64,000 nt of DNA from Minutocellus sp. GHC0000111 (lineage: Eukaryota): positions 2,728,001 to 2,792,000 of the forward strand of contig OZ361258.1 of NCBI GenBank assembly GCA_977018835.1, given 5' to 3'. The translations under genes and the position numbers were made by a program. Below the pieces are notes generated by a model that had not been told where the DNA came from, ran no database searches, and saw nothing but the letters and a program-made list of their open reading frames with translations. Below, one piece after another: positions 21,632-64,000 of this stretch (within the stretch, counting starts at the first letter, position 1; every line of letters starts with the position of its first letter).

Positions 21632-24600
21632 ATGGCCCCACCGACTGACGTGCTCGTGGCGAGCCCATCCTCCAGTGCTGCTGCCGGTGCCGCTGCTGGA
21701 CCAACAACGACCAACCATACTCCCATACCGGCCAACTGCGCGTCGCTCCAGCGCATCCGCCGCGCCCGGGAGCGATGGGAGGCCTCCAAGAAGAAGCTCC
21801 GGCCGGTCGAGCAGGGAGGCGAGGGGCGGGGGGTCGTTTCGCCCCTGGCCCCCCCGCTGCCGCCTCCTCCGTCCCCGTCGTCGTTCCGTTCGCCTCGGAG
21901 GGATGCCAAGGCTGCTATTACGGGTAGTTCTGGTGGTGGTGCTGGTATTGGTGGCAGTGCTGCAAAGGAAGACAAGGCAGTCGATGCGGTGGCTAAAGGA
22001 TCTGCTGGGGCGGCCGTAGCAGCTCCTGTACCGGCGACAACTGCACCTGCGCAATTCACCTTTTCGATGTCCCCTCCGTCGTCGTCGGGTGCCAAACCGG
22101 CCGTCAAGATTGATTTCGGCGTTGCTAGCAAGGCGGATAGCTGGGGTGGATCGAAAAGTGAGGGTGCTGGTACTGCTGCAAATGTGACCGGTGCTACCAC
22201 TACTGCATTATTTGGAGCCAAGCCATCGGCAAAGGCACCAGCAGCTTCTTCTTTTGGTGCTGCTGCTACTGCTGGTAGTAATGGCGGCGGCGGATTCTTC
22301 TCCTCCGTCAAGGTCCCGACGGCCACCGGCGTGGTTACCGAGGAGGGTGCCACCCCGACCCCATCCACGGCCTTTTCGTTCGGTGGTGGCAGTATTGGTG
22401 GTACTGGTGGGACTGCTGGGTTTGGTGCCGCAGGAGGATCAGCGGTATCCAGGCCATTGTTTGGTGCACCTGCCCCAGCTCCAGCGCCATTGTTTGGTGC
22501 ATCTTCTCCAGCTCCAGCGCCATTGTTTGGTGCTGCCACTGCAGAGAAGAAAAGTGACGGCAAATCGGAGGACAAAGAAAAGACAGAAGAAGCAGCAAGG
22601 ACGGATTATCATGCCAAGCTCGTGGCATTCTATACCAAACACAACCCATCCAAACTATCGACGGTCGACAAGACGCTGGAGTCGTACAAGGGCAAGGAAA
22701 ACGTGCTCTTTCAGAAGTTGGAGCGCAAGTACTGCCCTTCTGCTGCCACTACCAGTGCACCGGTCGAGGTGGCGTTGCCGCCTGGAGTCCTGCCGCCTCC
22801 GCCGGTTGGAGAAGTGAAGGATAGTCGCCCCACGGTATACCTCGATCTGACTCTCGGCGGAGAAACACTGGGACGGGTAACCATTCAGCTGTATACGGAT
22901 TTGGTTCCATTGGCCTCGGAGAATTTTCGTGCCCTCTGCACCGGTGAGAAGGGTAATGGCCGATCTTCGAGCAAGCCACTGCACTACAAGGGATGCTCCT
23001 TCCATCGGATCGTCCCCAACTTTGTCGTTCAGGGCGGTGACTTTACCAAGCACAATGGTACAGGCGGTGAATCCATCTACGCCGGGACGGAACATGGTGA
23101 TATGTGGGGCAAGTTCAAGGACGAAAAGCCGTTTTTGGGACACACCAGGAAGGGATTGCTAAGTATGGCCAACAATGGACCAAACGCAAATGGCAGTCAA
23201 TTCTTCATCACGCTGAGAAGGACGCCGCATCTCGATGGAAAGCATGTGGTATTTGGCTGTGTCACCGAGGGAATGGAGTTTGTAGATACCATGGTCGAAA
23301 AGACGGTGAGGGACAAGGCTGGGAAGCCGACAGGAGAAACCAAGGTTGTGATTAATGATTGCGGTGAGATTGGTGGCAAGAAGAAGGCAACATCCGAGGT
23401 CGCACAGACAACAAGTGCTGATACCAGTGCACCTGCGCCCACATCAGCATTTTCATTCGGAGCAAAACTAGCGGGGTCTTCATCCTTTAGCTTTGGAGCA
23501 ACGACAAAGCCTCCAGCATTCTCCTTCGCGAAGGCACCGGTCCCTGCGTTGGCGTCTGCCGGTGGAGATAGCGCTGGCGAGAAGCACAATAAAAAGGAAC
23601 CAGCTCCAGCATCAGCAGTATCATCTGCACCGAAGACAGTGTCGGCTTCGGCTGCCTTCCCTCCAATGTCGGCGGCCCCACCAAAGAATCCGTTCTCAGC
23701 GCCCAAAGCCGCCGCTGCCAGTAATCCAGCTCCGGCGCCAGCCTCCGCGTCAATCTTCGGCAGCAGTTCGGCTGCGCCTTCCTTTGGTTCTGGCAATGCG
23801 CCGACGTTCGGTTCTAGGCCGACACCTGTTTTCGGATCCAGCAGCACTCCGTTGTTTGGCTCTAGCAGTGCCCCAACATTTGGCTCTGGGTCAGCTCCTC
23901 CGTTCGGATCTGGCTCTGCTCCTGCATTTGGTTCTTCATTTGGCTCCAGCACTGCAAAAGGTGCCACCGGTGGCGGCGGCTTCGCTGCTCTGGCGTCGTC
24001 TCCAGCCAAATCCACGGCCTTTGGTGGCTTTGGTACCACAGACACCTCTGGATCCACCGGATTCTCGTTAGGTTCGTTTACCGCACGTACCGATCCCTCC
24101 ATGGTCAAACCCCTCTTTGATGCCACAACATCAGCCCATAACGATACTCCTACTGTCAAAGCAGCTGATAATGAATCTGAAAACGAACAAGAGAATCCGG
24201 CAGCGGAAAAAGAAGACGACGAGGTCTACTCAGACGACCTCATCGGCACCGCCGACACAGCACGGACGGCCTACGATGAGATCGCTGAGGGTGCAACATC
24301 TCTTCCCAGCAGCAGATTCGACGATCTGCTCGATGTGGTCGGCGAGGGCTTCTATGGCGACGAGAAGGACGAGCAGCTTGCCATCATCGATCCGAGCAGC
24401 ACCGGCACCATTACCAAGAAGGCCTTTGTTTCGTGGTACGTCAACTTCGTCACCGCTGCAGATGCCGACGATGACGAGTCGGCCTCGTTAGATACCGCCG
24501 ACCGCGAAGAACGCGAGGAGGAAAGGCAGAACGCCGACCAGGCCTTTACTGACACCGTCGGCGAGGGCATCGATGTTATTGACTCGGCCGCCTTTGGAGA

Positions 24601-62200: not shown

Positions 62201-64000
62201 TACGTCTGAAGCCGCACCTGCTCCTGCGCCGGCTGGTGCATCTGCGACTGACAATGGTACCGACAACATTAGGGAAGACGATGTTGGAGTATCAGGAACG
62301 GCGAAGCCTTTGTCGGATACTGATGAGGCGAGGACAGCCACGGCCGTCTTTGATTCTCTCGATGAGGGCAAGAAGGGCAGGGTACCGGCCTCAATGTTCG
62401 AGGCGCTCACCGACGAGCTTGGCGAAGGCTTCCACGGGGACGAGTTCGACAAGCAACTTGCCATCATCGACCCTGAAGGGACGGGCTTCATCGCTCGGTC
62501 CTCCTTTGCGGCATGGTACTCGGAGCTTGTCCTCGGAGGCTCTGGAGATGGCGAAGATGGTTCCGATGCTGGATCGCTCGACACTGAGGAGCGAGAAGAA
62601 CGTGAGGAGGAGCGTCAGAATGCTGACGAGGCCTTTACTGCCGCGGCTGGTGAGGATGTGGACGTCCTTGCCGTGTCAGCCTTCAGTGATCTGATTGAGT
62701 CTATGGGCACGACTTACTGCGAAGAGGAGCACCGACGTACCATCAAGAAAATTAGCAGCGAGGATGGCGCTACGATATCTCGTGATGCTTTCGTCGCTTG
62801 GTATTTGGACTGGCTCTTTGGAGGCGATGAGTCCGATATCGAGAGCGACGAAGGTGAAGATGACGAGGATGGTGATGCCGACGGTGCTGGTGGTACTGGC
62901 GGTGCATCGTCATCGGAGGGATGGGGAGGTACCTTTGGCGCTGCCGAGGAGGGTTCCTGGAAGTGCGATGCTTGTATGGTCCGGAACAAGGCTTCAGATG
63001 CCAAATGTGCTGCCTGTGAGACTGCACGCCCTGGATACGAAGCCAAGGCTGCGGAGGTATCGAGCGGCGATGGCTCGGCCACTGCGTCGTCAGCGGCGGC
63101 GTTTGCATCTGAGATAGGAACTGGTGGATTTTCATTCGGTGGCGGTGGTAGTAGCAGCAGTACCGCGGCACCTGCTCCTGCCTCATCCTCATCGATTGGA
63201 GCCGGCGGCTTCAGCTTTGGTGGCAATACTACTACTAGCAGCGCAGCGACACCAGCTCCGGCCTTTGGCGCATCATCGGCGGTCTCGTCCTCATCTTCAG
63301 GCGGAGGCTTCGCGTTTGGTGCGCCCGCCACTGCAGCACCAGCTCCACCTTCGGGAGTAGGAGGAGGAGGCTTTACGTTCGGCGTCAAGCCTGCCGTCAC
63401 ATCTGCTGCATCTGACAAAGTGAATCCTGACGCCACCGCACCCTCAGCTGCCCAACAAGAGAATCCGGCAGCGGAAAAAGAAGACGACGAGGTCTACTCA
63501 GACGACCTCATCGGCACCGCCGACACAGCACGGACGGCCTACGATGAGATCGCTGAGGGTGCAACATCTCTTCCCAGCAGCAGATTCGACGATCTGCTCG
63601 ATGTGGTCGGCGAGGGCTTCTATGGCGACGAGAAGGACGAGCAGCTTGCCATCATCGATCCGAGCAGCACCGGCACCATTACCAAGAAGGCCTTTGTTTC
63701 GTGGTACGTCAACTTCGTCACCGCTGCAGATGCCGACGATGACGAGTCGGCCTCGTTAGATACCGCCGACCGCGAAGAACGCGAGGAGGAAAGGCAGAAC
63801 GCCGACCAGGCCTTTACTGACACCGTCGGCGAGGGCATCGATGTTATTGACTCGGCCGCCTTTGGAGATCTGATTGAGTCGATGGGCACTACATACTGTG
63901 AGGAAGAGCATCGCCGCACCATCAAGAAGATTAGCGGTGCGGATGGGAAGATTTCCCGCGATGCATTCATTGCATGGTATCTTGACTGGTTGTTTGGGGG
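47214..64000 (+). CDS. Continuation of the giant FG/zinc-finger gene after the frameshift; open for about 5595 codons to the window edge
   Basis: ATG GTG CGT AAC AAG at 47214 resumes the repeat's coding frame ([14 protein letters not shown]). Later units are 3384 nt and I saw no stop. It is probably missing from the ORF track because no stop falls within the window. Confidence 0.85.

What the first reader, a model, noticed from the sequence alone, without database searches (positions are those of the whole stretch)
21632..64000. Intronless giant FG protein (over 14,000 aa if undeleted) with the Nup358/RanBP2 domain toolkit in a non-animal
Seen: cyclophilin, FG repeats and 23 intact RanBP2-type zinc fingers (plus one truncated) within the window; adding back the 710 nt gives about 14,360 codons with no end in view. 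Established: the combination of cyclophilin, zinc fingers and FG repeats typifies Nup358 (about 3200 aa, cyclophilin at the C-terminus), generally regarded as metazoan-specific. Here the cyclophilin is N-terminal, EF-hand-like modules are added, and no Ran-binding domain is visible. Inference: a convergently assembled and greatly amplified nuclear-pore filament or FG-condensate scaffold.
Basis: partly seen in the sequence, partly recalled or inferred. Interest (0 to 1): 0.85.

Follow-up and report, generated by a model that had tools for sequence, protein, structure and literature searches.

The report
Giant Nup214-derived diatom pore protein
A diatom gene joins a cyclophilin to a long, transcribed array of calmodulin-like, zinc-finger and FG modules shared with the pore protein Nup214; it likely encodes a very large docking protein of the nuclear pore that resembles animal Nup358 by convergence, although the assembled reading frame stops at 8,530 residues, not 14,000.

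Summary
The domains and the array are real; one 14,000-residue protein is not shown. The frame from 21632 stops at 47224 (8,530 aa), where 710 nt are missing; a second frame runs off the window. Units of about 3.38 kb are over 99.9% identical. Repeat-to-unique depth was about 7-11 in three of four public runs (one of them RNA) and 0.7 in the fourth, so an intact allele would be roughly 9,000-12,500 aa. The natural stop lies just after a zinc-finger/FG half-unit: there is no C-terminal anchor. This is not Nup358 (no RanBD, solenoid or E3 region). The repeated EF-EF-zinc-finger module is that of stramenopile Nup214 (91% identical to a relative's Nup214). The gene belongs to a family in diatoms, brown algae and other ochrophyte-like sequences: conserved N-terminal helix, three-helix bundle, Cyp40-type cyclophilin, FG, usually 1,100-1,900 aa. 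Its modules group with the Nup214 of each lineage, not with each other (AU p=1.4e-5), which points to repeated copying from Nup214. Four relatives carry a RanGAP-like LRR instead. The fingers are of the Ran-binding Nup153/Nup358 type. Pore localisation is inferred, not shown.

The parts
21632..47224 (+). ORF1, 8,530 aa (about 842 kDa): N-terminal part plus seven units, ending at the stop made by the 710-nt deletion
21743..21799 (+). Conserved N-terminal basic helix with a Trp; candidate anchor (inferred)
   Evidence: aligned in 17 of 17 rows of alignment A3
22604..22732 (+). Three-helix bundle ('HNP' motif, my label), also in 1-4 copies at the C-terminus of stramenopile Nup214
   Evidence: best Z 4.8, no clear fold match
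22826..23371 (+). Cyclophilin domain, Cyp40/divergent-loop type
23670..25620 (+). Block shared with Nup214-type protein P0005 (34-47 identities per 50-residue window, FG linkers included); likely conversion or capture tract
24188..64000 (+). Tandem array of 3,378/3,180/3,384-nt units, each (EF-EF-finger-FG) A + proline/FPP repeats + (EF-EF-finger-FG) B; 12 A anchors, open at the window end
24215..24934 (+). Module A of unit 1: two EF-hand-pair lobes and a Ran-type zinc finger (24848-24907)
25463..25852 (+). 102-nt sub-repeat (34 aa, FPPM..PKNPF motif), 3.8 copies; 1.8 copies in units 4-6
26429..27140 (+). Module B of unit 1 (66% identical to A, dN/dS 0.105)
25169..25171 (+). Position in the unit at which the last copy leaves the array: T followed by AA in contigs of three runs gives TAA. 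The real exit lies beyond the window
   Evidence: P0145 ends at this residue
47213..47215 (+). Junction of the 710-nt deletion (module B end joined into the next A finger), shifting the frame
   Evidence: same end in P0130
47214..64000 (+). ORF2, 5,595 aa, open at the window end; remaining units in another frame

Best explanation
[quoted passage not shown] Shown: domain content, array, transcription, purifying selection, family membership, module relationship to Nup214, position of the natural stop. Inferred steps: (1) the conserved N-terminal basic helix anchors the protein; (2) each finger binds Ran, with preference for RanGDP, as in Nup153/Nup358; (3) the EF lobes have lost canonical Ca2+ loops and serve as protein-binding or spacer domains; (4) the cyclophilin isomerises the proline-rich linkers or cargo; (5) the module block was copied from the Nup214 gene more than once in evolution, an A-B pair formed before the split from a sister species, and unequal crossing-over very recently multiplied it to about 7-12 units; (6) the 710-nt deletion is a secondary lesion or read artefact that shortens this allele to 14 fingers.
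For: Best homologues of the module are stramenopile proteins with Nup214 architecture: 49 with propeller and coiled region, 29 with one of them, of 153 module-bearing proteins. Module A is sister to Nup214-type P0005 (100/100), P0002 groups with Nup214 P0068/L011 (100/100), P0016 with P0037 (100/100); one clade of the cyclophilin-family modules is rejected, p-AU 1.4e-5, whereas the cyclophilins of the window and P0002 are sisters, 100/100. The first 25 of 35 PDB hits of the finger are Nup358 or Nup153; other NZF types follow at E 0.0015 or weaker; the Phe just N-terminal of the finger that Bley et al. describe as a second Ran contact is present in all 23. Four family members carry an LRR (P0049-52; Pfam LRR in three); for P0052 the ESM Atlas neighbours include RanGAP1 and WPP-domain clusters at 0.91-0.95 and human RanGAP1 at E 8e-12. 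dN/dS 0.085-0.105 for modules, 0.19 for the linker. RNA run X1: gene 14, repeat 127, several intergenic bins 0. Precedent for a lineage-specific repeated finger/FG protein at the cytoplasmic face: trypanosome NUP149 (PMC4758718, PMC11825100).
Against: No localisation or binding data. No known pore-anchoring domain: no propeller or coiled region in six frames of the window, no C-terminal anchor. FG density is modest (23 per 1,128 aa). Run X7 (spliced, no differences from the window in 22308-24215) shows a repeat-to-unique ratio of only 0.7, so long transcripts may be rare there. The assembled frame is broken, and other records break in unit 2 (P0001) and unit 7 (P0121). Axonemal LRR proteins score as high as RanGAP1 against the P0052 LRR, and the LRR is absent from this protein. 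The AU test does not reject joining the window's cyclophilin with RanBP2's (p 0.087). Nup214 labels rest on my own profiles; P0005 has no PF16755 hit by itself.
Confidence: 0.6

Rival explanations
1. It is the ochrophyte counterpart of Nup153/Nup1: a nuclear-basket FG protein anchored by its N-terminal helix, with Ran-binding fingers and FxFG motifs facing the nucleoplasm.
For: Best single-finger PDB scores are Nup153; 12 FxFG per unit; N-terminal anchor, fingers, FG end is the Nup153 order; UniRef calls some module-bearing relatives Nup153, though those have Nup214 architecture.
Against: Modules, HNP bundle and FPP repeats are shared with Nup214, and relatives carry a RanGAP-like LRR; RanGAP is cytoplasmic in the systems reviewed in PMC11825100.
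Confidence: 0.17
2. The pore function is carried by a short form (about 1,180 aa: N-terminus, one module, natural stop), as in most relatives; the giant array is a recent, near-neutral expansion that varies between strains and is seldom made as a full protein. This can hold together with the best explanation.
For: Most relatives have 0-3 modules (18 of 20); units differ by only 3 substitutions, so the expansion is very young; the frame is broken in all three long records; X7 ratio 0.7.
Against: Three of four runs, one of them RNA, give ratios of 6.7-10.7; all other length variants keep the frame (6 and 204 nt); brown-algal members have separately amplified to 3-6 or more modules.
Confidence: 0.3
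3. It is a soluble or condensate-forming Ran/karyopherin sponge or assembly chaperone that is not fixed at the pore.
For: No recognised anchor; about two thirds of each unit is low-complexity linker.
Against: The N-terminal helix is conserved in 17 of 17 aligned rows, which fits a fixed partner; every other part points to the pore.
Confidence: 0.13
4. The long array is an assembly artefact and the gene has one or two units.
For: Units over 99.9% identical; records agree for six units (about 20 kb) and then differ; X7 ratio 0.7.
Against: Ratios 8.6-10.7 (X8), 6.7-7.8 (X11), 9.1 (X1); units carry ordered length and sequence variants that recur in P0121.
Confidence: 0.05

Closest known systems
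Nup214/Nup159 (stramenopile form with EF-EF-finger cassettes)
   Same: EF-EF-finger modules (A 91% identical to P0005 over the second lobe and finger), FG and FPP repeats, HNP bundle, tendency to homogenised tandem modules (17 of 37 multi-module full-length proteins have a pair at 95% or more).
   Different: No beta-propeller, no coiled region; HNP is N-terminal and single; adds cyclophilin and N-terminal helix; 14-24 or more modules against 1-4.
Nup358/RanBP2 (metazoan)
   Same: Cyclophilin, Ran-type zinc fingers and FG in one large chain; link to RanGAP in relatives.
   Different: No alpha-solenoid NTD, RanBDs or E3/IR region; cyclophilin N-terminal and in a separate group (98/97); EF lobes; 23 fingers spread over repeats against 8 in one cluster; at least 2.6 times longer.
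Nup153
   Same: Finger type with N-terminal Phe extension; FxFG motifs; protein ends in FG sequence.
   Different: Cyclophilin, EF lobes, HNP, modules related to Nup214.
Trypanosome NUP149
   Same: Non-animal protein of near-identical repeats with zinc fingers and few FG motifs; cytoplasmic face (PMC4758718, PMC11825100, passages).
   Different: Three repeats; its fingers lack obvious homology to Nup358/Nup153 fingers; no cyclophilin or EF lobes reported in the passages read.
Cyclophilin 40 / divergent-loop cyclophilins
   Same: Best PDB match of the domain (E 3.7e-57), with the same His at the CypA Trp121 position.
   Different: No TPR domain; fused into an FG protein.

Membership tests
Nup358/RanBP2 | N-terminal alpha-solenoid/TPR anchor of about 900 aa | tested here: not met
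   aa 1-844 give only PF00160 at E up to 0.1; the first 320 aa are low-complexity
Nup358/RanBP2 | Four Ran-binding domains (PF00638) | tested here: not met
   none in the N-terminal part or the unit; units are near-identical and the natural end adds nothing
Nup358/RanBP2 | SUMO E3 / IR region (PF12185) | tested here: not met
   no hit; listed for the RanBP2 rows
Nup358/RanBP2 | Ran-type C4 zinc fingers | tested here: met
   (sequence type only; binding untested)
Nup358/RanBP2 | Cyclophilin at the C-terminus | tested here: not met
   domain at aa 399-580; C-terminal in relatives P0012, P0016
Nup358/RanBP2 | Cyclophilin orthologous to RanBP2's | tested here: inconclusive
   27 family rows are split from 6 RanBP2 + 3 oomycete rows at 98/97, but p-AU 0.087 for joining them; unrooted, few outside cyclophilins
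Nup358/RanBP2 | Located on the cytoplasmic filaments | not testable with these tools
   needs microscopy
Nup214/Nup159 | N-terminal beta-propeller (PF16755) | tested here: not met
   no Pfam hit; 0 hits of my propeller profile in six frames
Nup214/Nup159 | Coiled region that joins Nup88/Nup62 | tested here: not met
   0 hits of my profile; exit is a stop
Nup214/Nup159 | FG repeats and, in stramenopiles, EF-EF-finger modules and HNP bundles | tested here: met
Nup153 | Ran-type fingers and FxFG motifs | tested here: met
Nup153 | Nuclear-basket targeting N-terminus | not testable with these tools
   no profile; needs localisation
Cyclophilin PPIase | Domain with active-site residues | tested here: met
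   146 bits against cut-off 21.7; alignment to Cyp40 keeps Arg55, Phe60, Gln63, Ala101, Asn102, Gln111, Phe113, Leu122, His126; Met61 is Val, Trp121 is His (CypA numbering recalled); activity untested
Calmodulin-like Ca2+ sensors | Four EF-hands in two lobes | tested here: met
   model pLDDT 85, two lobes; calmodulin and centrin lead the fold search, E about 2e-5, TM only 0.2-0.3 over the whole model
Calmodulin-like Ca2+ sensors | Canonical 12-residue Ca2+ loops ending in Glu | tested here: not met
   best loop (EF2) keeps Asp1 (46 of 50 rows) and Gly6 (44 of 50) but has Ala/Ser/Thr at position 12; the other loops are degenerate (consensus recalled)

The most novel reading that the evidence does not exclude
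Ochrophytes built their own Nup358: a pore hub with cyclophilin, Ran-binding fingers, FG motifs and, in some diatoms, a fused RanGAP, which keeps refreshing its modules by copying from the Nup214 gene; in this diatom it has grown into a roughly 1-MDa nucleoporin of 9,000-12,500 residues with about 20 Ran sites, whose length varies between strains.
Probability: 0.3. Interest if true: 0.85.

Novelty: new variant of a known kind. Interest (0 to 1): 0.62.

Why it matters
Nup358 is described as metazoan-specific (bioRxiv 10.1101/2021.10.26.465790, PMC4758718), and how other eukaryotes concentrate Ran and RanGAP at the pore is open (PMC11825100). A family across diatoms and brown algae with cyclophilin, Ran-type fingers, FG and sometimes a RanGAP-like domain would be an independent solution, testable in transformable diatoms. 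Repeated copying of modules between two pore genes, and natural alleles from 1 to about 20 fingers, would give a direct test of the idea that the number of Ran sites at the pore is tuned. If full length is made, it would be about three times the size of Nup358, the largest constituent of the human pore.

Tried and rejected
Whole genome: none held, so this organism's own Nup214 and the 3' end of the array could not be read; whether P0005 is its own or a relative's Nup214 is open. Search of JGI metagenomes for the exit sequence: 0 matches. Only 4 of the 21 listed runs were laid; a second laying did not complete, so copy number in the other run of X7's sample and direct read support for the deletion junction remain open. 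In one search contigs of X1, X7 and X8 run unbroken across the place where the deletion re-enters module A, but contigs drop rare variants, so this says little. Complex prediction of the N-terminal helix with the EF lobes: tool not available; untested. HNP bundle: no Pfam hit, no PDB sequence hit in that part among the 60 shown, best Z 4.8, Atlas hits under 0.9 and unnamed; function open. Longer relatives: only 2 hits between 3,449 and 5,000 aa, a Nup214-type protein and a chytrid protein; proteins over 5,000 aa were not searched. Search with HNP plus linker found only 6 close relatives among 88 candidates, so the family's outer range is not fixed. Linkage: of 45 loci none holds a cyclophilin together with a propeller or coiled region, and none matches the window's nine neighbour proteins; many loci are short. 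The deleted 710 nt do not have GT-AG ends, so intron loss is rejected. Rescue by splicing out 19 nt (GT..AG) at the junction would restore the frame, but introns seen here are 110-153 nt; rejected. Alternative codes (tables 4, 6) do not join the two frames. Chimeric assembly as cause of the tree pattern: unlikely, since paired modules are not identical and RNA contig X1 spans the N-terminal part into module A. The careful version of the 179-row tree did not finish; one search is the quick tree. Literature: searches listed no paper on this family or on EF/finger modules in stramenopile Nup214 (listings only; one search showed 12 of 844, 12 of 112); supplements were not read and subscription papers are not covered.
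Full report
Observation. The window is from a eukaryote with compact, intron-poor genes; homologues place it among diatoms (named best hits and tree neighbours; inference). A frame opens at ATG 21632 and runs 8,530 aa to a stop at 47222-47224; a second frame, 47214-64000, runs 5,595 aa off the window. From 24188 the DNA is a head-to-tail array of units of 3,378, 3,180 or 3,384 nt. 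Across the 12 pieces aligned there are only three substitutions (two amino-acid changing, one silent), a 6-nt and a 204-nt in-frame length variant, and one 710-nt deletion with 2-nt microhomology that shifts the frame.

Anatomy. N-terminal part: a basic helix with Trp (21743-21799), low-complexity FG sequence, a three-helix bundle that I label HNP (22604-22732; model pLDDT 81, no clear fold match), a cyclophilin closest to Cyp40 among solved structures. Each unit holds two modules, A and B, each with two EF-hand-pair lobes and one finger, followed by FG motifs (23 per unit) and six FPP motifs. About 358 of 1,128 residues are structured. A and B are 66% identical with dS 2.4 and dN/dS 0.105; B against its counterpart in locus L001 gives dS 1.0 and dN/dS 0.096. 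So the A-B pair is old and conserved, and the amplification is young.

Is the array real, and how long? Of 21 listed runs four were laid on 16000-25400. Depth of module A over unique sequence: X8 8.6-10.7, X11 6.7-7.8, X1 9.1, X7 0.7. The tool warns that contig depth is no copy number, so these are rough. X1 behaves as RNA (a GT-AG joint in the neighbour gene, zero depth in 5 of 30 bins, all outside the giant gene), so the repeat is transcribed about in proportion to its DNA excess. X7 is also spliced but shows no excess; its contig has a one-base gap in a T run, which suggests a long-read or amplified library (inference), but a short allele or short transcript is not excluded. X8 and X11 differ from the window at many sites and are other strains. 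The window holds 12 copies of each part of A and is still open, more than most ratios imply. Other records: P0121 (7,717 aa) repeats the first six units variant for variant and breaks in unit 7; P0130 from the same 1,176,857-bp contig ends exactly like ORF1 at the deletion; P0001 from a 426,212-bp contig of another haplotype breaks in unit 2. The first contig may share reads with the window, so it shows that the junction is in reads, not that it is fixed in the strain. Agreement ends 20-23 kb into the array, about where reads anchored in unique sequence would end (inference). Best estimate: 8,530 aa for this allele as assembled, about 9,000-12,500 aa for intact alleles of 8-11 A copies.

The end. 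Contigs of X1, X7 and X11 leave the unit after base 25169, a T in first codon position, and continue with AA: a TAA after the third FG motif behind finger A. P0145 on the 426-kb contig ends at this residue. There is thus no C-terminal anchor; single-module relatives also end shortly after the finger. That this exit closes the array rather than a separate short copy is inferred.

Family. Searches and profiles built here sort 153 module-bearing proteins, the organism's own records left out, into 49 with propeller and coiled region, 29 with one of these, 20 with cyclophilin, 55 fragments (redundant entries not merged). The first two groups are stramenopile Nup214: propeller, 1-4 modules, coiled region, HNP bundles; PF16755 passes its cut-off in Phytophthora P0057, which seeded my profile. 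The cyclophilin group occurs in diatoms, brown algae (Scytosiphon 6 modules in a partial protein, Ectocarpus, Cladosiphon, Nemacystus, Sphacelaria) and unnamed sequences, mostly 1,100-1,900 aa; in P0012 and P0016 the order is permuted. Eleven further proteins have HNP and cyclophilin without modules; four of them end in an LRR that in P0052 resembles RanGAP. The N-terminal helix aligns in 17 of 17 rows chosen for having complete N-termini. The 27 cyclophilins form one side of a 98/97 branch against RanBP2 and oomycete rows.

Modules follow Nup214. In a 42-row tree the 12 cyclophilin-family modules need nine changes; three pairings with Nup214 have 100/100 support, and one clade is rejected (p-AU 1.4e-5). 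Caveats: I had seen the quick tree before naming the groups; L001 lacks its 5' end and L013 has a different order, and I classed both by hand. The window and P0002 are sisters by cyclophilin (100/100) but not by module (p-AU 6e-8 for holding window A, window B, L001 B and P0002 together). Module A is 91% identical to Nup214 P0005 and 84% to the A-like module of L001, and similarity to P0005 extends through FG linkers over about 650 residues. The simplest reading is repeated copying from Nup214, by gene conversion or fresh capture; these two cannot be told apart here, and no brown-algal Nup214 was available for comparison. Tandem homogenisation is a family habit: 17 of 37 multi-module full-length Nup214 have a pair at 95% or more.

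Mechanism. The fingers match Nup358 and Nup153 far better than ubiquitin-binding NZFs. Bley et al. (bioRxiv 10.1101/2021.10.26.465790; passages and section 8 read) report that these fingers bind Ran with preference for RanGDP, helped by a Phe or Leu just upstream, which is present here, and suggest that extra Ran sites raise Ran concentration near the pore. FG motifs binding karyopherins is established knowledge. The EF loops lack the final Glu, so Ca2+ sensing is unlikely. I therefore read the protein as a peripheral pore hub, most likely cytoplasmic because of the Nup214 tie and the RanGAP-like fusion, anchored by the N-terminal helix; the array multiplies Ran and receptor sites. Confidence 0.6. 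Location, anchor and binding are all untested.

Comparison. It works like Nup358 in part but fails membership (no solenoid, RanBD, E3 region). It is not Nup214 (no propeller, no coiled region) but is built from its middle. Trypanosome NUP149 is a precedent for a non-animal repeated finger/FG protein at the cytoplasmic face (PMC4758718, PMC11825100, passages). Neumann et al. list Nup358 in only 13 of their genomes, in the first (opisthokont) columns as far as the flattened table can be read (PMC2951903, passages); Bapteste et al. was read in passages only (PMC1257468). My searches listed no description of this family. An earlier AI note reports the same cassettes in a diatom Nup214; it agrees but is not independent support.

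Verdict. Real, transcribed, recently amplified array in a member of an apparently undescribed ochrophyte cyclophilin-FG family related to Nup214; size overstated; pore role likely but unshown. New variant of a known kind; interest 0.62.

Noticed in passing
P0049, P0050, P0051, P0052 (C-terminal about 350 aa): Family members without EF/finger modules end in a RanGAP-like LRR (P0052 is from a Chaetoceros transcriptome by its source name); the motif recalled as the catalytic region looks altered, so it may be a dead or divergent GAP.
   Followed up: partly
P0012, P0016, P0123; P0043; L013: Permuted orders: modules first and cyclophilin last, as in Nup358; P0043 has propeller, module and then a partial cyclophilin without coiled region.
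   Followed up: partly
P0006, P0011, P0013, P0029, P0124, P0126: Brown-algal and unnamed proteins have separately amplified a one-lobe-pair plus finger module 3-8 or more times; several records are partial, so more giants may be hidden by short assemblies.
   Followed up: partly
L036:9923-10440, L039:1705-1953: Short ORFs (295 and 435 codons stop to stop) that end in EF lobes of the Nup214 module without finger or FG; possible further captures of this module.
   Followed up: no
P0254: A chytrid fungal protein (Chytriomyces) has a Nup159/214-type propeller followed by five RanBP2-type fingers; probably a fused gene model.
   Followed up: no
window 19821-21596 (-): Gene divergent from the giant gene, with a weak DUF7504 hit (E 1.2e-4, below cut-off); the two may share a promoter.
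   Followed up: no
window 443-19693: Ordinary neighbours: alpha/beta hydrolase-acyltransferase (443-2353 -), RNA polymerase II subunit RPB2 (3648-7314 -), OSCA/TMEM63-type channel (10455-13523 +), APC10 (13647-14498 -), methyl-CpG-binding-domain gene (from 16241 +) with three GT-AG introns seen in RNA contigs.
   Followed up: partly
window 19711-19807: Loose ends in runs X7 and X8 on both sides of a short intergenic stretch suggest a small dispersed repeat.
   Followed up: no
window 23600 and 25100: Run X8 has loose ends before 23600 and behind 25100, near the edges of the block shared with Nup214; they could come from that strain's Nup214 locus.
   Followed up: no
window 24164-24187 against 27540-27565: The linker before the first A module lacks about 29 residues relative to Nup214 P0005, while the B-to-A linker keeps part of that sequence, so the first copy was altered after the unit formed.
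   Followed up: no
window 24352-62614 (-): Each unit has a stop-free antisense stretch of 724-792 codons; likely a shadow of the GC-rich coding strand, not scanned for domains other than my own profiles (no hits).
   Followed up: partly
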